Source: a virus | Reading direction: 5' to 3' (one strand) | DNA: 46,454 bases | Virus record (IMG/VR): IMGVR_UViG_3300027852_000059 | Location: 1-46,454 of that record | Shown: one piece after another, positions 1 through 46,454 of the stretch | Numbering within the stretch: the stretch's first letter is position 1 | Layout: the number at the start of each line of letters is the position of its first letter | Translations under genes and position numbers: made by a program | Notes under the pieces: generated by a model | Told to the model about the DNA's origin: nothing | What the model saw: the letters and a program-made list of their open reading frames with translations, nothing else | Database searches by the model: none

Positions 1-127
1 CAATATTTAATTTTAAACATTAAATCAATGCTTATTTGTTTTGTAGGGCGCGATGTGCAATTTGAGTGCCTATCTAAATCAATGCCGCGATGAATAAATT
101 TTACAGCCGATACCTACGCTAAGAGCG
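1..127. repeat. Terminal overlap copy 1 (identical to 46328..46454)
   Basis: Read directly: the same 127-nt string, caatatttaattttaaacat...ctacgctaagagcg, is at both ends. Confidence 0.9.
21..85 (+). repeat. Two direct copies of the 11-bp TAAATCAATGC (21-31 and 75-85), 54 bp apart, in an AT-rich non-coding stretch
   Basis: Seen in sequence. They lie in the non-coding region downstream of the repA-like gene, counting across the circle junction. Confidence 0.6.
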
Positions 128-186
128 CACCGCTCCGAGACTCGTTCCACTCGTTTCTCGCTTATATTTGTCTTCGACAAATGGAA

Positions 187-259
187 TTAATGCAATTCAT
201 AGTTAAAAGCAGACATATCGCATATTAATGTAAGACATTACTTATATTTTTAATGCAAT
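187..259 (+). repeat. Direct copies of TTAATGCAAT (187-196, 250-259) plus the variant TTAATGTAA (225-233)
   Basis: Seen in sequence, in the non-coding region just upstream of the 304..579 ORF. Confidence 0.5.
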
Positions 260-303
260 ATTGGGTGTATTTTATCATTCATAAATAAAAAGGAGTTTTT
301 AAC

Positions 304-579
304 GTGAGCCGAGTAGAACAAATAAGAGCCGAACTTGAATCTAACAATGAAATGTTGCGGGTTATTTCTGAATTAATAACCGAAAAATTACTAACACATA
401 AAAATATGTCAAATTCATTGATCGAGGCACAAGGTAATTTTATTTCTTTATATGCTAATAAAGCCGCTATTTTAGAATCACAGTTATTTATGCACTTAGA
501 TAATGAAAATACATCTAAAGTCGTAGGTATTGGTGAAGAACTAAATAAAAATAGGAAAAATAATATTATCGCCCGTTAA
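304..579 (+). CDS. Hypothetical protein, 91 aa, helical/coiled-coil-like
   Basis: GTG start preceded by AAAAGGAG at 290-297. No family recognised. Confidence 0.5.
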   Translation: MSRVEQIRAELESNNEMLRVISELITEKLLTHKNMSNSLIEAQGNFISLYANKAAILESQLFMHLDNENTSKVVGIGEELNKNRKNNIIAR

Positions 580-613
580 AGATGGTATTTAAACAAACGG
601 GCACTTTTTATAA

Positions 614-632
614 AGTGGTCAAATTGACCACT
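614..632. repeat. Perfect 19-bp palindrome AGTGGTCAA-A-TTGACCACT
   Basis: Seen in sequence between the convergent ORFs 304..579(+) and 771..965(-). There is no flanking T-run. Confidence 0.6.
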
Positions 633-770
633 ATTAAAGTATTGTAAATATCCCTTATTGTTAGGTGTTAACTTAGAATTATGCGCGCTTAAGGTGCGTA
701 TGTTTTTTAGTTGGAAATCCAATAAGCAGATAAGCCCTATTATGTTAAATAGAGCTTATTTATCTACTTT

Positions 771-965
771 TTATATTTTTTCCCAATGAGTTACAGAACT
801 TGTCGGCGATGTTGAATTTACAAACCATACATTTTTATTAGATTTGTCCCATCCTGTGTCTTTAACAAAAGTCATAACTTTTCCATCAGGGTAGTAAGCA
901 GACTTAGTTCTATATTGACCATCGTATTTTGGTAATTGTTTATCTACACTAATATAGTTACCCAT
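771..965 (-). CDS. Small phage protein, possibly DUF551-like
   Basis: 64 aa. The C-terminal ...SVTHWEKI resembles the conserved VTHW C-terminus of DUF551 phage proteins. Last gene of the minus-strand block. Confidence 0.45.
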   Translation of the reverse strand: MGNYISVDKQLPKYDGQYRTKSAYYPDGKVMTFVKDTGWDKSNKNVWFVNSTSPTSSVTHWEKI

Positions 966-983
966 ATCTATATTCCCACTTTG

Positions 984-1292
984 TCATTTTATTGCTCCTG
1001 TTGCTCTAATTCGTGTATGAATTTTCCGTTTACCTGGTGGCTGTGCAGGTGCCATTAAGCCTTTTTTTCTTAATTCCCAGGCTTTGGCCATTACAGTGTG
1101 TATTGTACGGCCTATTGCAAAACTCACTTCCTCCGGGCCAATAGATTCGTAGTTTTCAATAAGAAACTTTTGATCGCTCATTAGCCAATTTTTTTTATGG
1201 TTTGGGTGATAATCGGGGTTGTATTGCATACGGCCCCATTTATCAAAAGTAATTTCATGGTTATTTTCTGTATCTTTATTAGAGTTACTCAT
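984..1292 (-). CDS. Hypothetical protein, possible HTH DNA-binding
   Basis: 102 aa. The segment W..D..L...Y...G.EEVS.AIGRT..TV..KA.ELRKKG looks like a Myb/HTH-type motif. ATGA overlap with the upstream ORF. Confidence 0.5.
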   Translation of the reverse strand: MSNSNKDTENNHEITFDKWGRMQYNPDYHPNHKKNWLMSDQKFLIENYESIGPEEVSFAIGRTIHTVMAKAWELRKKGLMAPAQPPGKRKIHTRIRATGAIK

Positions 1293-1531
1293 GCGGATTG
1301 CCTCAATTGATATTCAACATATAAATCCTGGTATGCATCAATGTGACCGCAAGGATTAACCCAGGCGTCAACATAATAGTGTTGCTTGCCTATATTCAAT
1401 GGCGCTTTGAAAGTTCCCCCTCGTTGGCCATGACATACCGGGCAGTGATCTGAAATGGTGATTGTTTTTTCTGATAAAACCGAACTGGTATCGTTAATAA
1501 GCGGATCTTGAAGTAAAATAGTTACGTCCAT
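1289..1531 (-). CDS. Hypothetical protein with CxxC...CGH motif (possible Zn binding)
   Basis: 80 aa. Contains HCPVCHG and NPCGH. Translationally coupled (ATGA) to the next gene. Confidence 0.5.
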   Translation of the reverse strand: MDVTILLQDPLINDTSSVLSEKTITISDHCPVCHGQRGGTFKAPLNIGKQHYYVDAWVNPCGHIDAYQDLYVEYQLRQSA

Positions 1532-1562
1532 AATATACCGGCCCCTATTGGGGCCGCTCCCA

Positions 1563-1745
1563 TTAGATTAATTGAAAGTCTCGATTTTCAACTAACAAAC
1601 GGGTTACACCGTTCTTTAGTTCTTTGATCACTAACTTACCTCGATATTTATCTAGGCAAGCAGCATTTGTAGCTGCAGTAAATAGTTTTACGCCCTGTTC
1701 GGCGGCTTGTTGTATTGGAATAGTCAGCATATTTGCTTTCTCCAT
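1563..1745 (-). CDS. Hypothetical protein, 60 aa
   Basis: ORF in the operon orientation. No motif recognised. Confidence 0.4.
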   Translation of the reverse strand: MEKANMLTIPIQQAAEQGVKLFTAATNAACLDKYRGKLVIKELKNGVTRLLVENRDFQLI

Positions 1746-1859: not shown

Positions 1860-2123
1860 TTAAAATTCTTCTTTAATTACTTTCATTACCTTTTTTGCAA
1901 TAGTCGCATCACTACTCGATAAGTAAATCAGCGCCTTAAGGACGTTGGTTGAGTTAACTTTTTTACCCATTGTCTCGTTATGTTCTTCTACCTTTTCAAC
2001 CGCCAGAGTTAATCTAGCGCGGTCTGACTTGCGTAATCGACGTGTTAGCATCCAATCAGAGTCTTTTTCTACTGCAGATGTAGGTAACTCGGTTGTCGTT
2101 GTTGTGAATTTTTTCTTAGCCAT
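1860..2123 (-). CDS. Hypothetical basic protein, possible small DNA-binding (ParG/RHH-like) protein
   Basis: 87 aa. Basic N-terminus MAKKKF, then ..RLRKSDRARLTLAVEKV... Lies downstream of parA in the same operon. Confidence 0.45.
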   Translation of the reverse strand: MAKKKFTTTTTELPTSAVEKDSDWMLTRRLRKSDRARLTLAVEKVEEHNETMGKKVNSTNVLKALIYLSSSDATIAKKVMKVIKEEF

Positions 2124-2293: not shown

Positions 2294-2488
2294 CTATTCC
2301 AACTCTGAAAATAATTTTTCAACTATAAAGCGTCCCGTGTCTACACCGTCCACGCGACCATTATGATAATCCAATACAGCCTCATTATTCGGTGCAATAG
2401 CCCGGTCTTCTTTTTCTTGCTCCATACGTTCATCAAACGCATTCATTAAACTAGCCAGTAGTTTTACTTTATCCACGTTAATCTCCAC
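2294..2488 (-). CDS. Hypothetical protein immediately downstream of parA (candidate partition partner)
   Basis: 64 aa. The start overlaps the parA 3' end by 11 nt. The protein is acidic and no DNA-binding motif was recognised. Confidence 0.45.
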   Translation of the reverse strand: MEINVDKVKLLASLMNAFDERMEQEKEDRAIAPNNEAVLDYHNGRVDGVDTGRFIVEKLFSELE

Positions 2489-3290
2489 TTTCTATTTTTT
2501 CTAACAGTTCTTTTGCAAGGTCGCTAAGATCATTCATAACAGGATGGCCAGAATCAAACGCATGGATTAACCCTCTGCCCTTTTCCGTTACTTTCCTAAA
2601 GGACTCTCGTTCCCGGATGCAAGTGTTTAATACCAGGTCGTCGTATGCATCCCGGCCTATTGGTTTTTGGTCAAATAAAAACTCATTTAGTTTTGAATTC
2701 CCCTGGGCTTTCGGCTTTATCATGTTCCGTAAAATGAACAGTTCAAAACCATCTTCTTTAACTGGATTGATAGCATCAATTGTTGTTTGTATTCCATGCC
2801 AGGTCTTTTTATCCGTTGTGACCGGACATATAAAAACGTCGGCATATTCCGCGACATTATGTAACAAAGTGCCAGTTTGAGGCGGGCAGTCAATGACCAC
2901 CACATCAAACAAGTGTTCCACTTTCTTTAATGCTTTGGCTAATTTCCTTTCGCGTTTGGCATGACCTTGTATGGCCTGTTCAACGGTGGACAGTCGACGT
3001 GATGACGGGAAAAACTTTAAGTTATCTATTATGTTTCCGTTCTCGATATACGTTAAGAAGTTATCGCTAATATCAATAGATTTGTTTATTTCTAATTCAA
3101 GAACGTTGGCAATCGTTACCGGATAGTCTCTATCGTTATCAGATTGAGCTAAATCATTTGTTGCGTTGCATTGCGGGTCCATATCGACAAGTAATACGCG
3201 CAGTCGTTTAGCAAATTCCCGCGCTACATGTGTAGCTACAGTGGTTTTGCCTACCCCGCCTTTGTTATTTGTTACGCCAATTCTGAGCAT
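2478..3290 (-). CDS. parA: ParA/Soj-family partition ATPase (type Ib-like, no N-terminal HTH)
   Basis: Deviant Walker A NNKGGVGKTT near the N-terminus, plus LVDMDPQ and VVVIDCPP motifs. 270 aa. Confidence 0.9.
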   Translation of the reverse strand: MLRIGVTNNKGGVGKTTVATHVAREFAKRLRVLLVDMDPQCNATNDLAQSDNDRDYPVTIANVLELEINKSIDISDNFLTYIENGNIIDNLKFFPSSRRLSTVEQAIQGHAKRERKLAKALKKVEHLFDVVVIDCPPQTGTLLHNVAEYADVFICPVTTDKKTWHGIQTTIDAINPVKEDGFELFILRNMIKPKAQGNSKLNEFLFDQKPIGRDAYDDLVLNTCIRERESFRKVTEKGRGLIHAFDSGHPVMNDLSDLAKELLEKIESGD

Positions 3291-3339: not shown

Positions 3340-3556
3340 CAATAAAAGCAAATACAAATGCACTTGCAAAAGAAATTATTTTTATATTTACGTTAGTATT
3401 ATCATTTGTAAGTTCTTTTGTATTTACGTTGGTATTATCATTAGTAAGTTCTTTTGTATTTACGTATGTATTTACATTTGAATGTTTGTTTGAATTTGCA
3501 TTTGAAATAACATTTGTATTTATTTTTGTAATTGTATTTGTAAGTACATTGTATGA
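3340..3556. promoter_or_regulatory. Centromere-like (parC/parS-type) repeat array and probable parA promoter region
   Basis: Dense TGTATTTAC / CATTTGTA / TTTGTATTTG motifs in direct orientation, with an inverted copy GCAAATACAAATGC near 3350. It lies directly upstream of parA. Confidence 0.5.
3385..3456. repeat. Two tandem 36-bp units (2 mismatches), followed by a partial third unit
   Basis: Unit 1 is tatttacgttagtattatcatttgtaagttcttttg and unit 2 is tatttacgttggtattatcattagtaagttcttttg. Confidence 0.85.
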
Positions 3557-3664: not shown

Positions 3665-4912
3665 ATGAAAGGCACAACTACCACAATGAGTATTAGCGTT
3701 CGTTCTATATCTGAGGCGGCGCAAGAACCCACAATTGCACGTTTACGTGATACCAAAGAGCCTCGCTTGTATTTCGGCTTTGCGAGGGGGGACCGTTCGG
3801 CCGGCTCCTGGATGCTTGTTTACTATGATAAAAAAATCAAACAACGTGTATGGTCCTCATTCGCTAAATACCCTGATTTATCCCCGGCGCAAGCAAAGGC
3901 GACGGTTAAAAGACTATGGCTAGATATAGCAGCTAAAGAGTCTAGGGAGGTGATCGCCGCTAAAGCTAAATCAGGGGAGCTTGTTTTAGTGTCAGACTTA
4001 TTGACCTGGTTTGAAACCAATCAATCTACGTTAACTGACTTGTCATCAAGTCGAAAACGGGCCATTAAAAGCGCCATTCATAATCACCTAATACCTGGTT
4101 TTACTAATTATGAAATAACTGAACTCGATACGATGGCCCTTGAGCGAGTGTTTGCAGGGTTGAAAGCAAAAGGGTTAAAACTATCTACGTTACGCGCTTA
4201 CTTTGGAGTGTTGCAAAAGGCATTAGCCAAAGCCTCAATATTAAAATTAATCAAATCAAATCCTGTTTATGAGATCACCGCCGCAAAGTTGTTAGAGGGT
4301 GTCAGCCAAGAAAAAAAATGTAATTTAGACCCGGTACAAATCGAACCGTTATTTAGGCGTTTGCACTTAACGAAGTTGGAAACATGGGGGCTAATTTCCT
4401 TGCAATTTTTATTACTGAGTCGTGTTGATGAAATTGCGAGCGCTAAATGGCGTCACATAGACATGGAATCAATGATATGGACCTTGTACGACACAAAGAA
4501 TGGCAGTAACCATAAGGTGTTTATTAATTGGGTTGTGGTCGAGGTCTTATCAAAGTTAAAAGCGGAACAACGAGCCAAAGGCATAAGAACAGACTTTATA
4601 TTCCCCAATAACAAAAATCGTAGTCGATGCCTGGGCGGTGATGCTGCAGGTAAACGAGTTATACGTTTTTCTAAATCAAAATGGTCGAGCCACGATTTGA
4701 GAAAATATGGCCGTAACTGGTTAACAAATAACAAAATAGACCACGCTATCGGCGAGTACCTGGTCAATCATAAATTAAGTAAAACTGAACGGGCCTACAT
4801 AAGTAGTGTTGGCCGTGATTCAGCGTATTCAGCTTGGTTAAAGTGGGCTGAACATTTACATGAAAAAGGATTGCTTTCGAGACTTAAAAAGTACGAGACA
4901 GGTAAGAGATAG
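3665..4912 (+). CDS. int: Tyrosine recombinase / phage integrase family protein
   Basis: C-terminal catalytic pattern: R in LLSRVDE, HxxR in SSHDLRKYGRN, H in LVNH, Y in ERAYIS. GGGGGG RBS upstream. Confidence 0.8.
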   Translation: MKGTTTTMSISVRSISEAAQEPTIARLRDTKEPRLYFGFARGDRSAGSWMLVYYDKKIKQRVWSSFAKYPDLSPAQAKATVKRLWLDIAAKESREVIAAKAKSGELVLVSDLLTWFETNQSTLTDLSSSRKRAIKSAIHNHLIPGFTNYEITELDTMALERVFAGLKAKGLKLSTLRAYFGVLQKALAKASILKLIKSNPVYEITAAKLLEGVSQEKKCNLDPVQIEPLFRRLHLTKLETWGLISLQFLLLSRVDEIASAKWRHIDMESMIWTLYDTKNGSNHKVFINWVVVEVLSKLKAEQRAKGIRTDFIFPNNKNRSRCLGGDAAGKRVIRFSKSKWSSHDLRKYGRNWLTNNKIDHAIGEYLVNHKLSKTERAYISSVGRDSAYSAWLKWAEHLHEKGLLSRLKKYETGKR

Positions 4913-5375: not shown

Positions 5376-5777
5376 ATGGCAACAATAATAGCAAGTAAAG
5401 ACGGTAAGCGAATAAGAGTTAACCGGGCAGTTATCGAGATTGGTAAACGTTATAAAGATTTAACCGTCCTTAATATCGTTGAAGTGGAAAAAGGTCGCCA
5501 TAACGGCTTTGTATTCTTCAATTGTGAATGCGTATGCGGCGTTATTAAAGAAATAAGAAGTGATCTTATTGGTCGTACTGTTAGTTGCGGTTGTGCCAGG
5601 GCCAAGCATAGAAAATCATACTCAAAAGAGTCGTATCAACTCATGGAAGATAAAAAACTGACTGCAGATAAAACGATAGAAAAACCTAAACCTGGATATT
5701 CCCCGTCCAGATATTTAGAAATAGAGTCTAAGCGTGAACAGTTACGCCTAGAACGTGAGAATGATTTAGATTATTAG
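5376..5777 (+). CDS. Cys-rich (C.C.CG...SCGC) zinc-finger-like protein, paralog of 13229..13561
   Basis: Shares IG.RY..LTVL, C.C.CG....E.R..L......CGC and the C-terminal KPKP.Y.PS...IE....L..ERE with the 13229 ORF. Confidence 0.6.
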   Translation: MATIIASKDGKRIRVNRAVIEIGKRYKDLTVLNIVEVEKGRHNGFVFFNCECVCGVIKEIRSDLIGRTVSCGCARAKHRKSYSKESYQLMEDKKLTADKTIEKPKPGYSPSRYLEIESKREQLRLERENDLDY

Positions 5778-5785
5778 AGGTCAAC

Positions 5786-6634: not shown

Positions 6635-6652
6635 TAGAGAGTTAAGAGTTCT

Positions 6653-6874
6653 ATGAAATCGCCGGCTATCCTGACAAACAAGATTAGTGTGCCATTAAAT
6701 GACGTTGTGAAAGGTCACTCTTTTATTTATCGCAACACTGAGTATCGAATTAAAAAGCGGTATGTCATTTGGTCATTAATAGTGACGGTTGAGTATGGCC
6801 GTATTGAGTGCGTCAAGTCAGATGTTGAAGTAATGGTCGAGCCAAAAGGTTTTAAAAGGTACTGCAATGAGTGA
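6653..6874 (+). CDS. Hypothetical protein, 73 aa
   Basis: ORF in a tightly packed operon. It overlaps the next ORF by 8 nt. Confidence 0.45.
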   Translation: MKSPAILTNKISVPLNDVVKGHSFIYRNTEYRIKKRYVIWSLIVTVEYGRIECVKSDVEVMVEPKGFKRYCNE

Positions 6875-7130: not shown

Positions 7131-7133
7131 GTT

Positions 7134-8176: not shown

Positions 8177-8191
8177 TTAGGTGGATGAAAT

Positions 8192-8539: not shown

Positions 8540-8550
8540 GAGTAAATAAT

Positions 8551-40700: not shown

Positions 40701-43700
40701 CCTGAGTCCGGGGATTTCTTAGAGTATGATCCAGGAGGTGAAATATACGACCGGGTTGTAATGAATCCACCATTTAGTAAAGACCAGGATATTGATCATA
40801 TTTTACATGCATATTCAATGTTAAAACCTGGCGGTAAATTGGTGGCCGTGACTAGCTCAATGGCCGGTGATAGATCCAATAAAAAAAATCAAGCATTTAG
40901 AACGTTTATGGATGAACACGCCGCTGATGAAATATCGTTACCCGAGGGGAGTTTTAAGGATGCTATTAATCCTACTGGCGTAAATACTAAAATAATTGTT
41001 ATAGATAAGCCAAGTAGTAACCAGGAACAACAGCCATCAAGTAATGAAGATGTTGTATTTAACTTGGAAGAACAAACCCATAATAGCGGCCTTTCTGATA
41101 AAGACATGTCGAAAGTTGTCACCGAATTTTTAAATGTGTATAAAGGAGCTAAGATATTTAAAGGCGGCATACACATTGGAGGCGTTGATGAACTCTACAG
41201 CAAAGAATTACTCGAATCCCGACCAGAAGTTAGAGACTTGGCAAGAGGTTCGTACACGCCAAGAACTGACACCTTGCATATCGTCCGAGGACGGTTTAAG
41301 GATCGCGCCGACTTACTGCAGACCTTACGGCATGAGATATTGGTTCACAAAGGTTTGGGCGTTTTTCACAAAGAATACGTCGAAAACTTCCTAAGCCAAG
41401 TAAAATTAACTCGCGGCAGTAAAAACAGCTATATAAAAAATATATGGGATGAAGTATCACAAACATATAAAGATGAATCTGATTACGTACAAGCCGAAGA
41501 ATTTTTGGCTCGTGTTGCCGAAGATTTAGACGACACTGGTTTTGGTCAGTTCGTTAATAACAAAATCATTCATCCAATTATTAAAGCTATTCGTCGAATG
41601 CTTGAGTCAATTGGATTGTCATTAAGTACTCAGCCGTCAGAGATTAAACAAGAGCTTTATCGCATAACCGGGGCTTTACGTAAAGGCATTGAACCTCGTA
41701 ATCGTCAGAAACAGGACGCGGGTTTAATAGGTAAGCGAACGTATTTTAATATTGCGCCGCCGGCTGATAGTCAGTTATTGCCAAAACACCTCAATAAAGA
41801 AAGCGTTAATAAACATTACAATTCTATTAAAGCCAAATTACGGCCATTTATGTTGTCGTTATTACCACGTCGATATTTAAAAGATTTAGCCGGGGATACT
41901 TTACCTGCAATCTCGATATATGAACGTGCCGTAGAGCAGATGGACGCCGATAGAAACGAGCTGTTAAACGTTGCCGCTGACACAATGGTAAAATGGCGCA
42001 AATTGGCTGACAGTAATCCAGAAAGCGCGAAAGTGATGGCTGATCTTATGCACGATGCTACATTGGCAAACGTGGACCCGTCAGAACGTTATGAGCAGCT
42101 TGTAAACAAACAAGAATTAGACTTAGCAAAAAAACAATATCAGGCCGCGAAAAAGGACCAAAGCGATCTGTTAGCGATAGATAGAGAGTTAAATAACTTT
42201 AATGCATTGAAAGAGCGCGCTTTTGCAGAGGGAGAACGGGGCGCTATGTATACCATTCTTGCCCCTAAATTCAGGACGTTACCAACGGAGTTCCAGGACC
42301 TATTTAAAGAAGTGGTTAAATCATACCGAGATCAGAATAAAGCTAGATTAAAGGCATTGCTAGAACGTATAGAGTTCACCCCGACAGATGTTAACCATAA
42401 AAGTAAAATGCGTGACTTAATACGCATGAAGTTTGAGCAATCAGAGCGTGATTTTTATGTACCACTGCAGCGTTTTGGTGACTACTTTGGTTCGGTAAAG
42501 GACAACAACGGTGACATTGTTGAATTTAGTCTTTTTGAAAGCCAGGCCGAGCAAGAAACCTGGATTAATGAGCGTAAAACAAATTTCAAAGGCCAGGGTT
42601 ATACGATACGCGGCGGTAAGAAAAAAGAACACATGAATGAATTTGAGCGTGTGAATCCGGGTTTCATAACTGAAATAATGCCATTGTTAAATGAAGAACA
42701 GCAAGACGAAATATATCAATTGTACTTACACGCCATGCCTGATTTAAGTATGCGTAAACACTTTATTCACCGTAAAGGTGTTAAGGGTTTTCATACGGAC
42801 GCGTTACGTGCCTATGCAAAAAATATGTTTCATGGCAGCTATCAAATCGCCAGGCTAAAACATTCTCATGTTATGGAGGGTGCGTTATCAGCAATGCGCT
42901 TACAGGTAGACAGTAAAGCTAATATCCGAGAGGCGAATAAGGCGAGTGATATAGCGTCGGAAATAGAACAGCGTCATGCATGGATAGTATCACCAACGGG
43001 ATCTAGCATTGCTCATAAAGCGACTCAGTTTGGTTTTGCCTGGTACTTAGGGGCAACGCCGGCAGCGGCATTACTCAACGTCACCCAAACACCTATCATT
43101 GCATTACCGGTGATCGGTTCTCGTTATGGATTTACAGCCACCACAAAAGAGTTAACCAGGGCGGGTGTCGATTTTATCGGAGGGAAAGGCCACATTGAAA
43201 AAGCGTTGTCGGGCGACGAGTTAGAAATGGTAAATGAATTATTACGCCGAGGTGTATTAGATAAAACTATGAGCCATGATTTAGCCGGTGTGTCAGAGGG
43301 CGGCATTCAACACAATCCAACAACTCATAAATGGATGGGGTATATAAGTGCGATGTTCCACCACGCGGAGCGTTTTAATCGGGAAGTAACCAGTTTAGCC
43401 GCGTATCGCCTAGCTCGTAAAAAAGGAATGGACCATATAAGCGCTATAGACGAGGCCGCAAATTTAACATGGGAAAGCCACTTTGATTACGCCAGTGCAA
43501 ATAAAGCCAGATTTATGCAGAATGATACGGCCAAGGTCCTATTTTTGTTCCGGCAGCATAGCCTTAACATGTCAGCCCGTTTGTACCTGGACTTTATGAA
43601 GATATTGAAACCAAAAAATAAAGCAGAACGTGTTCAAGGGACTAAACAATTTTTAGGGGTGCTTGGTATGACAGGTATGTTTGCCGGTGTGGCCGGTTTG

Positions 43701-44498
43701 CCGTTGTACTCGGTAGTAACAGGGTTAGCTGAAATGTTTGGCGACGATGAAGACGAGCCGTGGGACGCAAATATTGCAATTCACCAAGGGCTAAACGACA
43801 TGTTTGGGAAAGAAGTCGGCGGCGCGTTAATGCATGGTGCGTTTAATGCGCTCACCCCTGCAGACATGGCAAGTCGAACGTCACTTAATAACCTATGGTT
43901 TAGAGAGCCGTACAGAGAATTGGAGGGCCGCGACTCGGTACAGTATTATGCTGAACAACTACTAGGACCTATTTTCGGGGTGGCCTTGTCGTTTGGTACT
44001 GGTAAATCATTAATAAATGAGGGGCAAACATATAGGGGGGTTGAATCTATGTTGCCTAAATTTGCCAGGGATATATTAAAAGCGGGGCGTTATAGTACGG
44101 ACGGCGTACAAAACTTAAGTGGTGCCGATGTTGTCGCATTAGAAGATGTTGGGATAGCAGATTGGGCGACGCAAGCCTTTGGTTTTTCACCGTCTAAAGT
44201 GGCCGAACGCTACGAACAAAATAGCGCGGTGAAAGGCTCAGAACAAAGGATTTTACAACGCCGTTCGTTGTTATTGAATAGATATGCATTAGGTAAGCGT
44301 ATAGATGACAGAGCGTTCTTAATTAAAGTAAAGACCGAAATCCAACAATTTAACAAGGCGAACCCCAATCACCCTATTACCGAAAAAACGGTAATACAGT
44401 CATTAAAACGCCGTCAGAGTTATGCAAATAAAGCCAAAAACGGCGTTAACCTAAATGATCGTTATAGATATTTAATCGAAGAAAACAGCATTCACTAA
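34743..44498 (+). CDS. Giant (3251 aa) polyvalent-type virion / DNA-ejection protein with an embedded N6-adenine methyltransferase-like domain
   Basis: A single uninterrupted ORF. G/A-rich N-terminus, ESTEVNxx repeats, VLEPSAGVGHI plus NPPF methyltransferase motifs, a PLQRFG motif, and C-terminal hydrophobic helices. A strong terminator follows it. Confidence 0.8.
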   Translation: MNYLFNETFEEFSGKSNVVADPDRNTSVFGDTVDMAQRGLAQGVAGIFDFVGADGVADSLNNWADSQMSQLSDEGQTSMSKEFFTEDEQGNLKAGEALTDVRAWWLNLVSTAGQFASTGGAAGLGLKGASMATKFANAADKTKKIIGVGAFGATGGMSATGQMESQARALVDDFDMETLKSSTRFREIYQSVNDENPDFDNVKLWEASKDKLKLQLARDVKTDPKVLLSNFALSAISDPIIGKAFTKRIANSIIKSAGKGALAEGATETIQGGIESLAVNQVAQSVDPSIDPMAGVKAAALTEGLIGGSMGATIAGGGAMLDRPKKLEAPKTGHENLDQVLAQGVEQENQRQEQAFNNKAAQSATESQPQDPIVSTQNDSVTTVSTPRSILPRPFTKIDSQPLSPVSAAVQTGIAVNDDQQKVNTPVKPTPVEIPTLNEFSEAETAAFLNVIELAQKQHPKYYKRSKLEFDRTNNQAAFIDGVTKLANNDPTYLSLNKKIEEQGIEQTKANVELQAQTKFLKKQQEDEAEKVRLRAEFIDRLVNQPKRDRDYPAALAQHNAKVDLDSSIRNNVEQSKQSRPGKAFKKSLSELRAELKPKRKHLKQLLAANKATKQMQMRIDQSIAAEKLHSGKPVDINVYVPNPAMKEAFSKALSPELKERVAKIDMATNKELLKIQDKRRRKEQELAISNAIKTWVADENGLYSEQYSSMPQNYNVELKGPDYETEQDTREDTNANISTNIESETVENASIAEPTEDAVKKPLKADNVDLSTHVANEAEYHRELAEQAYSHSNRYGGRVSQSNYVKYINDTYEQLDQDLNPEQKTLLDDEIKKLKSSYLEEDKNYLSSRSGVVGAHIAGKSNFNAKQANSRSKSDDRASDSFDSWKRQQVARINVALSKARTPEQNQEIKDKNANKVFVNDWREFLSSLGAMTEKGFNKRLLMPGLTRAWETLKQHDSEKVLGILNKAEAVFQQDGTSIAKAIGAKSLLAKEINAYMLDSTPNKLVDSVDKLNASESTEVNSNESTEVNSNESTEVNSNESTEVNSNESTEVNTSESTEVNAGESTEVNANELNVSERTDNESTPELSTKTVDNNVDETVEDELELSSEDIVEIESKHVKRRLSERLLMDRPAIELDGSFEGDFQDLADYASRLRIEATGHGRTKSDLIRAIDEQNEPFLIASILKAEYEDLSSKGLVPTHLGTANNDRYFTRNQLFKLGLDDGSTKFNRLKALTGAYTDPIKPLVGLDKSQIELDYLEQLLNQDESLSNQVRDRPWLSTVTVRLTQLRRDLAQHKDKYLNARKAIYKASLSRDANFSDKEFQSWLQSNLASFKAQHNVDYLMPSKEQAFTEFTERATTRLTKNKEKIEDWTKATLFDFLDGEDQLHRGELPFDEYKEMGQALSDKREAVRAEISGLTKTKIGETRGMFWAARHGSDKKSTMVESAFENLFRSLNVNREGMTVLIGMGFGEKRGPDHYIDQIKEKFDAIDRTQYETWQQSIKDDRAAAEAERERKAQALEDPQSIEDFHRLYNLKGAKGMTAEQWAIFDRLVADENLAMQEKSKTRTVEAINEDVNYTLHETKHSKKDIDLFVVSLGDRVDKDVYRELNTKAKQLGGYYSSYNKAGAIPGFQFKSEETRQDFLSLLAGDTVERTKVEKDTAETLMDKAIRLEEKAREELERPRNTNTSRRASMAASSIDSAERNMAIAQELKSLSVAISSGRAKYLKGVSQNTQRDLLAQLFNRLQREAAKDIDTRDKHMEPSKHPVYGYDTGHKWRAGVPTEEKVRHAKYPFVTWEKAALHKYLDKMETADGYKLAAQALRKSLNQTKSENAFIGNHRSFDKFLSYSLQHESAHPFIKSEAQDYNRLQKLGINGTQHLRAALVEYDLLTSDAETVVVKSPAAEALKYSHLKGMYKDNDFHNSPNAVVEEVIGYADIEPGMRVLEPSAGVGHIADAVADIVGKDGVDTVEMGFELRKMLEGKGYKPESGDFLEYDPGGEIYDRVVMNPPFSKDQDIDHILHAYSMLKPGGKLVAVTSSMAGDRSNKKNQAFRTFMDEHAADEISLPEGSFKDAINPTGVNTKIIVIDKPSSNQEQQPSSNEDVVFNLEEQTHNSGLSDKDMSKVVTEFLNVYKGAKIFKGGIHIGGVDELYSKELLESRPEVRDLARGSYTPRTDTLHIVRGRFKDRADLLQTLRHEILVHKGLGVFHKEYVENFLSQVKLTRGSKNSYIKNIWDEVSQTYKDESDYVQAEEFLARVAEDLDDTGFGQFVNNKIIHPIIKAIRRMLESIGLSLSTQPSEIKQELYRITGALRKGIEPRNRQKQDAGLIGKRTYFNIAPPADSQLLPKHLNKESVNKHYNSIKAKLRPFMLSLLPRRYLKDLAGDTLPAISIYERAVEQMDADRNELLNVAADTMVKWRKLADSNPESAKVMADLMHDATLANVDPSERYEQLVNKQELDLAKKQYQAAKKDQSDLLAIDRELNNFNALKERAFAEGERGAMYTILAPKFRTLPTEFQDLFKEVVKSYRDQNKARLKALLERIEFTPTDVNHKSKMRDLIRMKFEQSERDFYVPLQRFGDYFGSVKDNNGDIVEFSLFESQAEQETWINERKTNFKGQGYTIRGGKKKEHMNEFERVNPGFITEIMPLLNEEQQDEIYQLYLHAMPDLSMRKHFIHRKGVKGFHTDALRAYAKNMFHGSYQIARLKHSHVMEGALSAMRLQVDSKANIREANKASDIASEIEQRHAWIVSPTGSSIAHKATQFGFAWYLGATPAAALLNVTQTPIIALPVIGSRYGFTATTKELTRAGVDFIGGKGHIEKALSGDELEMVNELLRRGVLDKTMSHDLAGVSEGGIQHNPTTHKWMGYISAMFHHAERFNREVTSLAAYRLARKKGMDHISAIDEAANLTWESHFDYASANKARFMQNDTAKVLFLFRQHSLNMSARLYLDFMKILKPKNKAERVQGTKQFLGVLGMTGMFAGVAGLPLYSVVTGLAEMFGDDEDEPWDANIAIHQGLNDMFGKEVGGALMHGAFNALTPADMASRTSLNNLWFREPYRELEGRDSVQYYAEQLLGPIFGVALSFGTGKSLINEGQTYRGVESMLPKFARDILKAGRYSTDGVQNLSGADVVALEDVGIADWATQAFGFSPSKVAERYEQNSAVKGSEQRILQRRSLLLNRYALGKRIDDRAFLIKVKTEIQQFNKANPNHPITEKTVIQSLKRRQSYANKAKNGVNLNDRYRYLIEENSIH
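37791..37958 (+). repeat. Seven in-frame tandem 24-bp units (gaaagtacagaagttaattcaaat) encoding ESTEVN(SN/TS/AG/AN)
   Basis: Read directly. The first four units are identical. The repeat lies inside the giant CDS. Confidence 0.9.
40572..40775 (+). other. Methyltransferase motifs I (VLEPSAGVGHI) and IV (NPPF) within the giant CDS
   Basis: Motif I codons start at 40572 (aa 1944). NPPF is at 40764-40775 (aa 2008-2011). The order I then IV fits gamma-class amino-methyltransferases. Confidence 0.7.
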
Positions 44499-44507: not shown

Positions 44508-44550
44508 CGCCATATTAGTTCTTTAGTGTATCTAATGTGGCGTTTTTTTT
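44508..44550 (+). terminator. Strong intrinsic terminator ending the late operon
   Basis: CGCCATATTAG-N13-CTAATGTGGCG (11-bp stem with one G-T pair) followed by 8 T. Confidence 0.8.
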
Positions 44551-44703
44551 GATCGTTCACTTTACCTTTGGCGTAAGATCCTTTAAATTGATCTCGCTTT
44601 TAAGAGGGGGATAATATATTGTTGCCTTTCTTAGTAAGAGACAAGATTGTTAAATTAGAGGCGAAAAAAAACCGCCTATAAGACGGTTTCTCAACAATTT
44701 GAT

Positions 44704-44839
44704 ACTTGCAAAGAAGAACAAAAAATAATTTAAGTTATAAGACGTAGAAGTCTAATTAAATTAAATTAAATTATGAAACATAAACAAAAACCAAACTAAC
44801 CATGATCGAGTTTATGTTTCCTTGTTCTTCTTTGCAAGT
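44704..44839. promoter_or_regulatory. Nested perfect inverted repeats in the repA leader (18-bp outer arms, 11-bp inner arms)
   Basis: ACTTGCAAAGAAGAACAA (44704-44721) pairs with TTGTTCTTCTTTGCAAGT (44822-44839). GAAACATAAAC (44775-44785) pairs with GTTTATGTTTC (44810-44820). Confidence 0.6.
44754..44773. repeat. (AATTA)x4 pentanucleotide tandem repeat
   Basis: Read directly, between the outer and inner inverted-repeat arms. Confidence 0.8.
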
Positions 44840-44883
44840 GCAAATTGTATTTATTAGTAAATATAATTATAAGAATATTAAAC

Positions 44884-45951
44884 ATGAGATTGAACTCAGG
44901 CCGTCGCGCCTATGTAAAAAACCCTATGCCCGTCCTAATGCTCGCGGAAAATCCGTATTGTGAAGTTATCAGATACGAGTTTGAAACCATCCCCGGTGAG
45001 AGTGCGCAAGCTGAATTAAAGCGTCGAAAACACCATGAAAGTCTACTAGATGCTCACAACGAACAGTTGGCGGAACGCACGAAACACCCGTTAATAAAAC
45101 ATATATATAACAAAGCAAAAGCCACAGATATTTTTGATAAAGATGAATTATTTCTGAAAATTAATGAAATGATTTATAACGGTATGAGAAAAGAAAAAGT
45201 TAACATTCATCGCCGGCGCGCTATTAAAGTGTTTGTTGAATTGTTAGCTATCAGTGTTGATTTAGAAACAAATTTGGTTGAGTTTGATAGTTTAACGTCT
45301 GCAGCTAAAAAGACATCGTTAGCTACTATGTCCAGTGAGAAAGTATCTCACATGATAGAAAAGGGTGAAGAAGTCACACCTAACATATCAAGGCTAACAA
45401 GAGCGTATGCAATGCTTTGTTTAATGGGGTTTATTAAATTTAATGCTCGGGTGTTAACTACTGATGTATTACACGATATAGCATCCGGGAAAGACGGGAA
45501 AGGCACCAGATATATGCCTCGCATTATTGAAGTAGACGACAAGTTATTTGAGTTGCTAGGCGTTAATATGGATAGACTAGAAAAAGAAAGAGAATGGCGA
45601 CGAGAAAACCGTCAAGATCGATTAAACCTGAGATCGCCCGATGAAATAAAAAACAATGTCATCTTATCAAGAACTGAGATTAAAAAACGTCACAAACAAA
45701 AAATACGTTTATCCTCGTTTGATTACCGACGTAAGCAAATAACAAAAGCCTCACAAGCGCGTAGAGCTAAGTCATTACAAGAGAAGACTAAAGAGCAATT
45801 AAGAGATATGGCTCGCGGTGATGTATTTAAAACATTAAATGCGACGAGTGTTGAAAGTCTAAGTCAATTTGAATTTACCCAGGCAGTTAACGCGAAGTTC
45901 AATGAGCTTTTAAAGTTAAAGAATAGTTACACAGAATCCCCACCAGACTAA
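44884..45951 (+). CDS. repA: IncFII-type RepA-like plasmid replication initiator
   Basis: RRAYVKNPMPV matches R1/R100 RepA YYRQVKNPNPV. HRRRAIKVF matches LRRRAIDAL. NISRLTRAYAMLCLMGFI matches SITRATRALTFLSELGLI. Comparison is from memory. The track TTG start at 44845 is less likely than ATG 44884. Confidence 0.6.
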   Translation: MRLNSGRRAYVKNPMPVLMLAENPYCEVIRYEFETIPGESAQAELKRRKHHESLLDAHNEQLAERTKHPLIKHIYNKAKATDIFDKDELFLKINEMIYNGMRKEKVNIHRRRAIKVFVELLAISVDLETNLVEFDSLTSAAKKTSLATMSSEKVSHMIEKGEEVTPNISRLTRAYAMLCLMGFIKFNARVLTTDVLHDIASGKDGKGTRYMPRIIEVDDKLFELLGVNMDRLEKEREWRRENRQDRLNLRSPDEIKNNVILSRTEIKKRHKQKIRLSSFDYRRKQITKASQARRAKSLQEKTKEQLRDMARGDVFKTLNATSVESLSQFEFTQAVNAKFNELLKLKNSYTESPPD

Positions 45952-45977
45952 TAAAGAAGTATAAGCCAACGTTATAG

Positions 45978-45999
45978 CCCTGATTTTGTCGGGGTTTTT
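45978..45999 (+). terminator. Weak intrinsic terminator candidate after repA
   Basis: CCCTGA-TTTTG-TCGGGG followed by TTTTT. Confidence 0.35.
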
Positions 46000-46102
46000 G
46001 TCGTGCCTGTCTGTTAGTTTTAAGTGTGGTATTTATTCACTTCATCTTCAATCGGCCAAAAAGCGCTAACTTTCAAGTTACAGCTAAAAGGTTATTAACC
46101 GG

Positions 46103-46125
46103 TTATCCACTAAGATATATATATA
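46103..46125. promoter_or_regulatory. DnaA-box-like TTATCCACT (8/9 to TTATCCACA) followed by an (AT) run; origin candidate
   Basis: Read directly about 150 nt downstream of repA. ATATATATATA occupies 46115-46125. Confidence 0.45.
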
Positions 46126-46295
46126 ATGCAAACTACTTAGATTAATGGATGCTATAAAGGATTTTATAATGCAAGTATCACCCGCCCGGGGCGCTTTTAA
46201 GAGACCTAAAAAGAAAAGATTGCTACGTCCCAAAATCACGGCCACAAGTGGCCTATTTTGATAGTTGTTCGCCAATTCGCTACGCGGGCGCGCTG

Positions 46296-46315
46296 AATCG
46301 CTGTTAATCGCTGTG
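46296..46315 (+). repeat. Tandem AATCGCTGT(T/G) x2, with a related AATTCGCT at 46274-46281
   Basis: Read directly in the non-coding region downstream of repA. Confidence 0.6.
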
Positions 46316-46327
46316 TAAGAGCCAACA

Positions 46328-46454
46328 CAATATTTAATTTTAAACATTAAATCAATGCTTATTTGTTTTGTAGGGCGCGATGTGCAATTTGAGTGCCTAT
46401 CTAAATCAATGCCGCGATGAATAAATTTTACAGCCGATACCTACGCTAAGAGCG
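46328..46454. repeat. Terminal overlap copy 2 (identical to 1..127)
   Basis: Read directly. A length of 127 is typical of an assembler k-mer overlap on a circular contig. Confidence 0.9.

What the first reader, a model, noticed from the sequence alone, without database searches (positions are those of the whole stretch)
1..46454. Closed-circle phage-plasmid: podovirus-type virion genes plus IncFII-type RepA, ParA and a tyrosine recombinase, with no phage replicase
Seen in sequence: bases 1-127 equal 46328-46454, so the molecule closes into a 46,327-bp circle. Read from the ORFs, it carries a full packaging, head, tail and lysis set (14880..44498). It also carries a RepA-like initiator (44884..45951), a deviant-Walker-A ParA (2478..3290) with an upstream repeat array, and a tyrosine recombinase (3665..4912). 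I could not find any DNA polymerase, primase, helicase or RNA polymerase ORF. Inference: this is a temperate element that probably replicates as a low-copy plasmid prophage using host machinery recruited by RepA, rather than by a phage replisome. A short-tailed virion module combined with an IncFII-like replicon is not one of the phage-plasmid types I know (P1, N15, SSU5 and similar).
Basis: partly seen in the sequence, partly recalled or inferred. Interest (0 to 1): 0.7.

Follow-up and report, generated by a model that had tools for sequence, protein, structure and literature searches.

The report
Short-tailed phage-plasmid with IncFII-type replicon
This 46.3-kb circle from a metagenome is a short-tailed temperate phage that has a plasmid-style replication, partition and recombinase cassette where its relatives have lambda-type replication genes, so it is probably a new lineage of "phage-plasmid", a kind of element that is already known.

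Summary
Bases 1-127 equal 46328-46454, giving a 46,327-bp unit, and a second assembler spans the junction. The RepA passes NCBI's curated cut-off for IncFII/LM initiators. ParA has the deviant Walker A motif, with about fifteen 12-bp repeats upstream. The recombinase is a full-length P4-type tyrosine integrase. No profile found a polymerase, primase, helicase or RNA polymerase.

The virion module is syntenic with Pseudoalteromonas phage vB_PunP_Y3, which is short-tailed by electron microscopy. More distant backbone relatives replicate with lambda O/P-type genes. Six metagenomic relatives share parts of the window's plan. Two show the whole order: giant virion protein, then RepA, then ParA and Int facing apart. 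Of 103 testable loci with the giant protein, only the three closest have RepA downstream. A DnaA-box-like site lies 102-271 bp after repA in 7 of 7 loci (P about 2e-9), as in an IncFII origin.

The same gene trio sits on circular myovirus plasmid records from Vibrio and Aliivibrio isolates.

Verdict: most likely a phage-plasmid of a new podovirus-type lineage. The episomal state is inferred. The 127-bp overlap is an assembler signature, the host is unknown, and the integrase allows an integrated or dual lifestyle. Interest is moderate.

The parts
1..127 (.). Terminal overlap identical to 46328-46454 (assembly closure; unit circle 46,327 bp)
   Evidence: One search shows the exact identity. The Logan contig spans the junction exactly.
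44509..44551 (+). Intrinsic-terminator-like hairpin plus T-run that ends the late (virion) operon just after the giant gene
   Evidence: Read from the sequence (inference from the sequence).
44620..44883 (+). Highly structured repA leader. It holds an 18-nt perfect inverted repeat (44704-44721 / 44822-44839). There is no Shine-Dalgarno sequence before the repA ATG.
   Evidence: Fold z-score -8.1; inverted repeats; sequence.
44660..44801 (-). Candidate countertranscript (CopA/RNAI-like antisense RNA) that would end at a minus-strand terminator hairpin at 44664-44692. Its promoter is weak (8/12) and inferred.
   Evidence: fold z-score -4.8. Relative L048 has a clear minus-strand promoter and terminator at the same place. 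Rfam gives no match.
44884..45951 (+). repA, an IncFII/LM-type plasmid replication initiator that is very divergent
   Evidence: Only 5 non-self hits, best 30% identity, among 1.84 billion representative proteins.
45976..45996 (+). Terminator-like hairpin after repA
46095..46200 (.). Candidate oriR. It has a DnaA-box-like TTATCCACT at 46103-46111 (152 bp after the repA stop), then an AT-rich stretch with TATAATGCAA twice (46122 and 46165).
   Evidence: A DnaA-box-like site lies 102-271 bp after repA in 7 of 7 related loci, against a background of 0.30 per kb (P about 2e-9).
771..1745 (-). Four small ORFs of the plasmid-side block. The 1563-1745 ORF is 71% identical to its counterpart in relative L011.
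1860..2123 (-). Candidate centromere-binding protein (ParG-like, 87 aa) with a basic disordered N-terminus followed by an 'RLTLAVEK' strand
   Evidence: Its homologues lie directly after ParA in L011 (51% identity), L049 and L048. No profile or PDB hit. The AlphaFold model was uninformative.
2294..2488 (-). 64-aa ORF overlapping the parA stop; function unknown
2478..3290 (-). parA, a deviant-Walker-A partition ATPase (270 aa, no N-terminal HTH hit)
3371..3550 (.). About fifteen 12-bp direct repeats (consensus TGTATTTACATT), with inverted copies at 3344-3378. This is a candidate centromere/operator between the divergent parA and int genes.
3665..4912 (+). Tyrosine recombinase of the P4/PRK09692 integrase type, with catalytic motifs intact
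   Evidence: Homologues at 25-32% identity occur in relatives L048, L049 and L147 and in Vibrio/Aliivibrio myovirus phage-plasmid records.
4913..5375 (.). 463-bp non-coding stretch after int with hairpins; possibly the recombination site (unproven)
   Evidence: No tRNA or tRNA fragment was found.
5376..14711 (+). Early/accessory region. It holds two HNH-like paralogues, a DHH phosphoesterase, an N4-gp49-family protein, a 299-aa coiled-coil protein, a phrog_536 regulator and one lone minus-strand ORF (10577-10846). No replisome gene and no recognisable CI repressor.
14880..16234 (+). Holin (14880-15173) and a 350-384-aa protein of unknown function. No endolysin was recognised.
16250..20574 (+). 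Small terminase, large terminase and portal (SU10_portal family)
20744..34727 (+). RyR-domain protein, scaffold-like protein, major capsid protein (22217-23224), SU10-type adaptor (23868-24527), tail proteins and two GNAT acetyltransferases (31550-32460). No tape measure, sheath or tube protein.
   Evidence: Synteny with vB_PunP_Y3.
34743..44498 (+). 3251-aa polyvalent virion protein with a DNA methyltransferase region (about aa 1335-2105), an LPD39 domain and a DarB-like/PLxRFG C-terminal region

Best explanation
The window is the complete genome of a temperate short-tailed phage that most likely persists as a low-copy circular plasmid prophage, that is, a phage-plasmid. Shown: it has a full podovirus-type packaging, head and tail module, an IncFII/LM-family RepA, a deviant-Walker-A ParA preceded by a 12-bp repeat array, and a P4-type tyrosine recombinase. 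Parts of this layout are conserved in six metagenomic relatives, and two of them show the whole cassette order. Inferred mechanism, replication: RepA, made from a structured leader that a short antisense RNA probably throttles, opens an origin about 150-250 bp downstream of its own gene. That origin begins with a DnaA box and an AT-rich stretch. RepA then recruits the host DnaA, DnaB/DnaC, primase and Pol III for theta replication, which would explain why the phage carries no replisome genes. Inferred mechanism, partition: ParA, together with a small ParG-like adaptor (1860-2123) bound to the 12-bp array, segregates the copies at cell division. Inferred mechanism, recombinase: it resolves plasmid multimers, as Cre does for P1, and/or allows occasional integration. 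The late operon (holin to giant protein) ends at a terminator just before repA. The giant DarB-like methyltransferase protein is probably packaged and ejected with the DNA to protect it from restriction.
For: RepA passes the curated thresholds (Pfam 27.3 bits vs 22.9; NF040977 90.1 bits vs 70). ParA, Int and the repeat array are confirmed. The cassette sits in a conserved order. L011 has giant -> RepA -> ORF1563 homologue (71%) -> ORF1860 homologue (48-51%) -> ParA C-terminus (55%). L019 has giant -> RepA, the RepA scoring 143 bits. L048 and L049 have giant -> RepA -> about 5 kb -> ParA (minus strand) facing away from Int (plus strand). L147 has Int followed by the same backbone. Only the 3 closest of 103 testable loci with the giant protein have RepA downstream, and 0 of 20 genome loci do. 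A DnaA-box-like site lies 102-271 bp after repA in 7 of 7 loci, P about 2e-9. A minus-strand terminator lies in the window's leader, and a promoter plus terminator in L048's. The same trio (weak IncFII RepA, ParA, homologous recombinase) is found on a complete circular 41-kb plasmid of Vibrio sp. HDW18. By position and annotation it is also on the circular Aliivibrio phage vB_Alvi_H905 record. 45 plasmid records, mostly non-mobilizable and many of 37-56 kb, carry a homologue of the recombinase. More distant backbone relatives have lambda-type O/P or O/DnaB modules instead, so here a plasmid replicon has replaced the phage one. Two assemblers close or span the circle without host flanks.
Against: There is no direct evidence of an episomal state. 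The circular assembly is equally expected for packaged, circularly permuted virion DNA or for replicating lytic DNA. The host and the sample type are unknown. The recombinase is a full-length integrase type, not a short Xer-like resolvase. No CI-like repressor, toxin-antitoxin system or other addiction module was recognised. The antisense RNA and the ParG-like adaptor are inferred from position and shape only: Rfam found nothing and the AlphaFold model was poor. ParA scores below NCBI's equivalog cut-off (92 bits vs 180). L049's rep-like protein matches only my own family profile, with no NCBIfam hit.
Confidence: 0.62

Rival explanations
1. It is an ordinary integrating temperate phage. The P4-type integrase inserts it into the chromosome. 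RepA is simply its initiator for lytic replication, a functional substitute for lambda O/P, and ParA has a role other than plasmid partition. A dual lifestyle like that of P4 (integrated or plasmid) is a milder form of this rival.
For: Int is 415 aa and matches PRK09692/P4-type integrases along most of its length, with catalytic residues intact. A 463-bp non-coding stretch follows int and could be attP. More distant backbone relatives are integrated prophages with integrases, in Pasteurella, the Aeromonas media chromosome and Acinetobacter chromosomes. Record pANC7919.1 shows that circular 'plasmid' records can be plain lambdoid phages of this backbone type.
Against: A dedicated ParA, adaptor and centromere-like array is hard to explain for an integrated prophage, yet the ParA gene is kept across the clade; the repeat array itself was seen only in the window. 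The homologous recombinase co-occurs with ParA and RepA on circular plasmid records from isolates. No tRNA-like attP core was found. No contig shows host flanks.
Confidence: 0.25
2. It is a virulent or carrier-state podovirus that happens to carry plasmid-derived genes. The circle reflects only terminal redundancy or headful permutation of virion DNA.
For: No repressor was recognised. The 127-bp overlap is an assembler signature (my own knowledge of SPAdes k=127). vB_PunP_Y3 was isolated as a plaque-forming phage (PMC11654794).
Against: An integrase plus a partition system plus a copy-controlled plasmid initiator are hallmarks of temperate or episomal elements, and they are conserved in the clade.
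Confidence: 0.09
3. It is an assembly chimera joining a plasmid fragment to a phage genome.
For: It comes from a metagenome, and the plasmid block (about 44.5 kb to 5 kb) is compact and lies on one side of the assembly junction.
Against: Two assemblers give identical joins on both sides of the block. Four other contigs from other samples show the same giant -> RepA join, and two of these plus a fifth contig show ParA, Int or both joined to the same backbone.
Confidence: 0.02

Closest known systems
Phage-plasmids as defined by Pfeifer et al. 2021 (P1, N15, SSU5, pMT1, pKpn, AB groups; PMC7969092, PMC11652158)
   Same: One replicon carries both a complete virion, packaging and lysis module and plasmid replication and partition genes. 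The phage part is conserved while the plasmid part is variable and exchangeable. IncFII-type replicons occur in some P1- and pMT1-group members.
   Different: All well-defined groups are siphophages or myophages of about 55-111 kb. This element is a 46-kb short-tailed type with a very divergent RepA (at most 30% identity to anything in 1.84 billion representative proteins). Only a few podovirus-type phage-plasmids had been flagged before (F116 community, crAssphage). There is no nucleotide match to any phage or plasmid record.
Pseudoalteromonas phage vB_PunP_Y3 (proposed family 'Poorviridae', PMC11654794) and related lambdoid podoviruses (Pasteurella phage Pmp11, Burkholderia BcepC6B/KL4, Cronobacter vB_CsaP_Ss1)
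   Same: The virion module is syntenic: TerL 37%, portal 38%, capsid 42%, adaptor 31%, 536-aa protein 37%, acetyltransferase 30%, and a giant protein with a methyltransferase region. Y3 has a short tail by electron microscopy.
   Different: Those phages carry lambda-type O/P or O/DnaB replication genes, Cro/CI and NinB, and no ParA or RepA. The window has none of these and carries the plasmid cassette instead.
IncFII / IncL/M basic replicon (R1, R100: copB-copA-tap-repA-oriR)
   Same: RepA is a family member above the curated cut-off. The candidate origin lies about 150 bp downstream of repA and begins with a DnaA box followed by AT-rich DNA. The leader is structured, with a candidate countertranscript.
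   Different: There is no CopA/Rfam match, no CopB homologue and no tap-like coupled leader peptide. RepA is 355 aa with an N-terminal extension. The incompatibility group cannot be determined.
Circular myovirus phage-plasmids of Vibrionaceae (Vibrio sp. HDW18 p_unnamed2, NZ_CP049915; Aliivibrio phage vB_Alvi_H905, PP986400) and metagenomic P2-like contigs L009 and L012
   Same: HDW18 p_unnamed2 has the same plasmid trio: a divergent IncFII-like RepA placed just after the last late gene, a small ParA with a small downstream protein, and a homologous tyrosine recombinase (27-30% identity). H905 has the homologous recombinase, a ParA-like partition gene and a 361-aa ORF in the RepA position, which was not scanned. 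The fetched parts of L009 and L012 show RepA and ParA but no tyrosine recombinase.
   Different: Their virions are completely different (contractile P2-like tail, lambda-like head). ParA is the 213-aa type rather than 270 aa, and Int is not adjacent to ParA.
Type Ib partition systems (TP228 ParF/ParG/parH; pB171 par2)
   Same: A small ParA without an HTH, a small downstream adaptor candidate, and an array of short direct repeats upstream of parA that could serve as both centromere and operator.
   Different: The adaptor has no detectable homology to ParG, and an extra 64-aa ORF separates it from parA in the window. Binding was not tested.

Membership tests
Phage-plasmid (Pfeifer et al. 2021 operational definition) | Complete phage functions: packaging, capsid, tail, lysis | tested here: met
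   TerS, TerL, portal, capsid, adaptor, tail proteins and holin are present. No endolysin was recognised.
Phage-plasmid (Pfeifer et al. 2021 operational definition) | Plasmid replication and/or partition genes on the same replicon | tested here: met
   RepA matches NF040977 at 90.1 bits vs a cut-off of 70, and ParA matches AAA_31 at 5.7e-35. Synteny is conserved in relatives.
Phage-plasmid (Pfeifer et al. 2021 operational definition) | Extrachromosomal maintenance in lysogens | not testable with these tools
   There is only a circular assembly without host flanks, and virion DNA would give the same result.
Phage-plasmid (Pfeifer et al. 2021 operational definition) | Production of infectious virions | not testable with these tools
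   The element is known only from metagenomes.
IncFII / IncL/M-type replicon | RepA of family PF02387 / NF040977 | tested here: met
   The stricter incFII equivalog TIGR03474 did not appear in the window's hit list, although it gives weak hits for relatives.
IncFII / IncL/M-type replicon | Origin downstream of repA with a DnaA box and an AT-rich region (RepA acting in cis) | tested here: met
   TTATCCACT lies 152 bp after the stop, followed by an AT-rich repeat. The same is seen in 7 of 7 related loci, P about 2e-9. Origin function itself was not tested.
IncFII / IncL/M-type replicon | Antisense RNA copy control (CopA/RNAI) with leader-peptide coupling and a CopB repressor | tested here: inconclusive
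   There is a minus-strand terminator and a structured leader, and a clear promoter plus terminator in L048. However, Rfam gives no hit, there is no tap-like ORF ending at the repA start, and no CopB homologue was found.
Type Ib ParA partition system | Small deviant-Walker-A ATPase lacking an N-terminal DNA-binding domain | tested here: met
   KGGVGKT lies at residues 10-16 and the protein is 270 aa. It scores below the NF041546 equivalog cut-off (92 bits vs 180).
Type Ib ParA partition system | Small ribbon-helix-helix centromere-binding protein encoded downstream | tested here: inconclusive
   Homologues of the 87-aa candidate lie directly after ParA in L011, L048 and L049. There is no profile or PDB hit. 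The AlphaFold model had pLDDT 60 and was all-helical.
Type Ib ParA partition system | Array of short repeats next to the operon acting as centromere | tested here: met
   About fifteen 12-bp units at 3371-3550. Binding was not tested, and no comparable array was found in L048 or L049.
P4-type tyrosine integrase | Catalytic R...H-x-x-R...Y residues and full-length architecture | tested here: met
   The motifs SRVDE, HDLRK and ERAYI are present. PRK09692 matches residues 48-318 and phrog_1 matches at 2e-34.
P4-type tyrosine integrase | attP with identity to a host tRNA 3' end next to int | tested here: not met
   There is no tRNA and no T-arm-like motif near int. The host genome is unknown, so other attB types cannot be excluded.
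N4-like phages (Schitoviridae) | Virion-packaged giant RNA polymerase and own DNA polymerase | tested here: not met
   The giant protein matches DarB-like, methyltransferase, LPD39 and PLxRFG profiles only. It has no sequence match to solved N4 vRNAP chains. No DNA polymerase ORF was found. Only the capsid family and an N4-gp49-family domain are shared.

The most novel reading that the evidence does not exclude
The slot immediately after the giant virion gene is a hot spot for replicon exchange. Podovirus-type and P2-like myovirus-type phage-plasmids and ordinary marine plasmids trade highly divergent IncFII-like repA-ori cassettes there. RepA identity within the podovirus clade is 21-27%, no closer than to RepAs of myovirus phage-plasmids or plasmids, while flanking genes are 50-70% identical. 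The exchange would be driven by incompatibility between co-resident elements. The clade would then be an old, stable lineage of short-tailed phage-plasmids that can also integrate through its P4-type integrase, giving a three-state lifestyle of plasmid, integrated prophage and virion.
Probability: 0.3. Interest if true: 0.6.

Novelty: new variant of a known kind. Interest (0 to 1): 0.45.

Why it matters
Phage-plasmids are increasingly seen as bridges for gene flow between phages and plasmids. The characterised groups, however, are almost all long-tailed and come from enterobacteria. This window and its relatives would add a short-tailed lineage, apparently from uncultured and probably marine Gammaproteobacteria, in which a plasmid replicon has replaced the lambda-type replication module of an otherwise recognisable phage backbone. 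The same RepA, ParA and recombinase trio recurs on unrelated myovirus backbones. RepA is also far more divergent than its neighbours. Together these give a concrete, testable case of modular replicon swapping between phage morphotypes. The practical value is modest until a host is found.

Tried and rejected
Nucleotide searches. Megablast of the whole window against the phage and plasmid collections found nothing.

RepA searches. The word-indexed protein search found only the window's own RepA. A scan of IMG/VR with RepA alone found nothing. tblastn gave only weak hits to Erwinia haradaeae RepA and to part of a Yersinia phage ORF.

RNA and tRNA. Rfam at E <= 1 gave no hit. ARAGORN found no tRNA, and a T-arm motif search found nothing near int.

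GC skew simply follows gene orientation and says nothing about the origin.

Small proteins. PDB sequence searches for the 89-aa lone minus-strand ORF, the 87-aa ParG-like ORF and the phrog_536 regulator found nothing. A single-sequence AlphaFold model of the 87-aa protein had pLDDT 60, so I ran no fold search.

N4-like giant RNA polymerase. The Poorviridae paper suggests this for Y3's giant ORF. I rejected it for the window at the sequence level.

Missing parts of relatives' contigs. I tried to fetch the rest of SRR3569370_168 and Ga0209396_1000434. As a result I do not know their replication modules or whether their ends close.

Genome scan. The scan of species-representative genomes found only distant relatives (at most 39% identity), integrated or on large contigs, none with the cassette. 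It gave no host for this clade.

Two circular 'plasmid' records turned out to be phages of other types and not relatives of the cassette. E. coli pSTEC648_2 is a 60.5-kb phage-like record, and Acinetobacter pANC7919.1 carries a giant PLxRFG protein but no ParA or RepA in the part examined.

Misassembly was rejected because both the assemblers and the relatives agree on the joins.

Full report

Yes. The first 127 bases are identical to the last 127, and no other terminal overlap exists. The unit is therefore 46,327 bp at 41% GC. From my own knowledge of assemblers, 127 is the largest k-mer of SPAdes/metaSPAdes. The overlap is thus the usual mark of an assembly graph that closes on itself.

An independent assembler gives the same join. 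The Logan contig SRR5248754_43473 (39,045 bp) matches the circularised window exactly from 37875 through 46327/1 to 30592. It comes from the same sample, so it is a second assembler and not a second data set.

**2. The plasmid-type genes**

- **RepA (44884-45951).** It scores 27.3 bits on Pfam IncFII_repA against a gathering score of 22.9. It scores 90.1 bits on NCBIfam NF040977 'RepA_IncFII_LM' against a cut-off of 70, E 1.8e-25, nearly end to end. It is extremely divergent. A full HMMER scan of 1.84 billion representative proteins found five other hits, the best at 30% identity.
- **ParA (2478-3290, minus strand).** It has the deviant Walker A motif KGGVGKT and strong AAA_31/CbiA hits.
- **Repeat array.** Between parA and the divergently transcribed recombinase gene lie about fifteen 12-bp direct repeats (3371-3550, consensus TGTATTTACATT). 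Autocorrelation peaks clearly at lags 12, 24 and 36.
- **Recombinase (3665-4912).** It is a full-length tyrosine integrase of the P4/PRK09692 type with catalytic motifs intact.

**3. The phage genes**

A single plus-strand block runs from the holin (14880) through TerS, TerL, portal (SU10_portal), capsid (Phage_capsid_4, the N4-gp56-like family), SU10-type adaptor, tail proteins and two acetyltransferases. It ends with a 3251-aa polyvalent protein that has a methyltransferase region, an LPD39 domain and a DarB-like/PLxRFG C-terminal region. No tape measure, sheath or tube protein was found.

The module is syntenic with Pseudoalteromonas phage vB_PunP_Y3: TerL 37%, portal 38%, capsid 42%, adaptor 31%. 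That phage is short-tailed by electron microscopy (PMC11654794). 'Podovirus-type' is therefore well founded.

No ORF matched a DNA polymerase, primase, helicase or RNA polymerase in Pfam, PHROGs or NCBIfam. The giant protein has no sequence match to solved N4 virion RNA polymerase structures. No endolysin and no CI-type repressor were recognised.

**4. What the relatives show**

There is no nucleotide match in the phage or plasmid collections. The nearest TerL in 5.8 billion proteins is 52% identical, on a 48.6-kb contig from a coral black-band-disease metagenome (PMC5240343). More distant TerL relatives are prophages of Pasteurella, Gallibacterium, Aeromonas and Vibrio.

Characterised backbone relatives replicate with lambda-type genes. 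Pmp11 has an integrase, CI, an O-like initiator and DnaB. vB_PunP_Y3 has Cro, O, P and NinB. Lacking a replisome is therefore normal for this backbone. What differs here is the initiator.

The key result is that the plasmid cassette is conserved in a small clade.

- **L011** (12.5 kb) has the giant protein (C-terminal 915 aa, 54% identical) followed directly by an IncFII-type RepA (27-28% identical to the window's). Homologues of window ORFs 1563-1745 (71%) and 1860-2123 (48-51%) follow, then the end of ParA (55%).
- **L019** has giant followed by RepA; this RepA scores 143 bits on NF040977.
- **L048 and L049** (IMG/VR contigs of about 57 kb) have giant, then RepA, then about 5 kb of genes, then ParA on the minus strand facing away from Int on the plus strand. 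This is the window's arrangement. ParA is 28-32% and Int 25-27% identical.
- **L147** (Ga0209396_1000434, 49,986 bp) has Int followed by the same early and virion backbone.
- **L026**, the other end of that same contig, carries the closest giant-protein match of all (57% over the part present). The gene runs off the contig end, so what lies downstream could not be checked.

Among 103 loci that carry a related giant protein and have at least 2 kb downstream, only the three closest (at least 44% identity) have RepA there. None of 20 loci from bacterial genomes has it. Those loci are at most 39% identical, mostly from Acinetobacter and Betaproteobacteria, and many lie on large contigs. This rules out a chimeric assembly. 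It shows a lineage-specific and evolutionarily stable association of this phage backbone with the plasmid cassette.

**5. Origin and copy control**

A terminator follows repA at 45976-45996. After it, a DnaA-box-like TTATCCACT lies 152 bp past the stop codon. An AT-rich stretch with TATAATGCAA twice follows.

The same kind of site (at most one mismatch to TTATCCACA) lies 102-271 bp after repA in all seven related loci examined. These include the P2-like contigs. The background is 0.30 sites per kb, which gives roughly P = 2e-9 for 7 of 7. I chose the distance window after seeing the data. This layout matches what is established for IncFII oriR of R1/R100, where the origin lies downstream of repA and starts with a DnaA box (my own knowledge).

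Upstream of repA, the late operon ends in a terminator (44509-44551). The 260-nt repA leader is unusually structured, with z = -8.1. A minus-strand terminator hairpin at 44664-44692 would end a countertranscript of about 140 nt, with z = -4.8. In L048 the equivalent interval has a 10/12 minus-strand promoter and a strong minus-strand terminator.

This fits antisense copy control but is not proof. Rfam has no match, and there is no tap-like coupled leader peptide and no CopB.

**6. Partition**

The 87-aa ORF at 1860-2123 has homologues placed directly after ParA in L011, L048 and L049. It has a basic, low-complexity N-terminus followed by an 'RLT...' strand-like motif, as ParG-type adaptors do. 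No profile or PDB sequence hit supports this. The AlphaFold model was too poor to use. With the 12-bp array upstream of parA, the arrangement resembles a type Ib system.

**7. The recombinase and lifestyle**

Its homologues (25-32% identity) occur in 173 phage records, 147 of them Vibrio phages. They also occur in 45 plasmid records, 41 of them non-mobilizable and many of 37-56 kb, from Vibrio, Aeromonas, Pseudomonas, Halomonas and Delftia.

Two of these were inspected. Vibrio sp. HDW18 p_unnamed2 is a circular 41-kb record. Aliivibrio phage vB_Alvi_H905 is a circular 40.6-kb record. Both are myoviruses with a P2-like tail that also carry a small ParA. In both, a mid-sized ORF sits just after the last tail gene. 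In HDW18 that ORF is a weak IncFII-type RepA (34 bits, E 1.9e-8); the H905 ORF was not scanned.

Distant RepA relatives from metagenomes likewise sit next to P2-like tail genes with a ParA (L009, L012). One sits in an ordinary 75-kb plasmid.

So this gene trio is a recurring set on elements that assemble as circular replicons in sequenced isolates. That favours an episomal lifestyle here, with the recombinase resolving multimers. It does not exclude integration, because the enzyme is of the integrase type. No tRNA-like attachment core was found.

**8. Replicon exchange**

RepA proteins within the podovirus clade are only 21-27% identical to each other. They are no closer to one another than to those of myovirus phage-plasmids or plasmids. 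For example, L019 is 32% identical to L009, and L049 is 34% identical to the HDW18 protein. Flanking genes, by contrast, are 50-70% identical. This suggests repeated replacement of the repA-ori cassette at a fixed position. It agrees with the published rule that phage-plasmids keep their phage genes and vary their plasmid genes (PMC7969092).

**9. Comparison with the literature**

The well-defined phage-plasmid groups are all siphophages or myophages (table in PMC11652158). Pfeifer et al. remarked that few are podoviruses, naming some F116-community Klebsiella elements and crAssphage (PMC7969092). Fusion of plasmid backbones with different phages is documented in marine Roseobacter (PMC10090143). 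Circular and linear phage-plasmids have been verified experimentally in Vibrio crassostreae (PMC13230959). I found no description of this particular combination.

**10. Verdict**

The most likely reading (about 0.6) is a phage-plasmid of a new short-tailed lineage. An IncFII/LM-type RepA with a downstream DnaA-box origin has replaced the lambda-type replication module, next to a type Ib-like partition system and a tyrosine recombinase. The main rival (about 0.25) is an integrating or dual-lifestyle temperate phage that uses RepA for lytic replication. A virulent or carrier-state phage is unlikely (about 0.09) and misassembly very unlikely (about 0.02).

It is a new variant of a known kind and of moderate interest. 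What is missing is a host and direct evidence for the episomal state.

Noticed in passing
window 34743-44498: A 3251-aa single ORF takes up 21% of the genome. It has a DNA methyltransferase region (about aa 1335-2105), an LPD39 domain and a DarB-like/PLxRFG C-terminal region, and is probably an ejected anti-restriction 'polyvalent' protein. The first 1300 aa match no profile. The Poorviridae paper calls the Y3 counterpart an N4-like virion RNA polymerase; I found no sequence support for that in the window.
   Followed up: partly
window, whole: GATC is under-represented: 88 sites against about 167 expected from base composition. This may reflect avoidance of a GATC-targeting restriction system or Dam-related selection.
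   Followed up: no
window 5376-5777 and 13214-13561: Two paralogous small HNH-like proteins (phrog_27240 / phrog_374) sit at the two ends of the early region.
   Followed up: no
window 5786-6634: A DHH/DHHA1 phosphoesterase (phrog_4771, E 5e-80) lies right after the integrase block. It could be a nuclease or a nucleotide-signal-degrading anti-defence enzyme.
   Followed up: no
window 11865-12764; L048 13196-14011; L049 12942-13766; L009 about 17364-17819; L016 about 13410-13685: A 299-aa coiled-coil protein (weak SMC-like and P1 PmgS-like hits) is conserved in the podovirus clade. It also has relatives in the P2-like myovirus phage-plasmid loci. In L048 and L049 it sits inside the plasmid block between RepA and ParA, whereas in the window it is in the early region.
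   Followed up: partly
window 20744-21178 and 31550-32460: A RyR-domain protein follows the portal, and two adjacent GNAT acetyltransferases lie inside the tail module. The acetyltransferase is also present at the same place in vB_PunP_Y3.
   Followed up: no
window 10577-10846 (minus strand) with intergenic 10847-11075: A lone 89-aa minus-strand ORF sits in the middle of the plus-strand early region, with a divergent intergenic region. This is the position expected for a repressor/Cro-type switch, but no profile or PDB hit supports it.
   Followed up: partly
L016 (NZ_CP049915.1), L126 (PP986400.1), L009/L010, L012: A coherent group of circular elements of about 40 kb with a P2-like tail occurs in Vibrio and Aliivibrio isolates and in metagenomes. 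Where scanned (L016, L009/L010, L012), they carry a divergent IncFII-like RepA placed right after tail gene D. Each also has a 213-aa ParA with a conserved small protein next to it (49-66% identical between L016, L126 and L009). The two isolate records also have a tyrosine recombinase homologous to the window's; L012 instead shows a serine resolvase. RefSeq annotates the HDW18 RepA-like gene as hypothetical.
   Followed up: partly
L008 (CP061838.1, E. coli pSTEC648_2) and L018 (NZ_CP156790.1, Acinetobacter pANC7919.1): Two records deposited as circular plasmids look like complete podovirus-type phage genomes. pSTEC648_2 has a 2318-aa virion protein, ParB, a DUF927 protein (a family I know as primase-helicase-like) and a toxin-antitoxin pair. 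pANC7919.1 has a 3216-aa PLxRFG protein, an integrase, an S24 repressor and a YdaU protein, with no ParA or RepA in the part examined.
   Followed up: no
L048 15381-16085: Relative L048 carries a serine recombinase (Mpi/invertase-like) between RepA and ParA, in addition to the tyrosine recombinase. The window has no counterpart.
   Followed up: no
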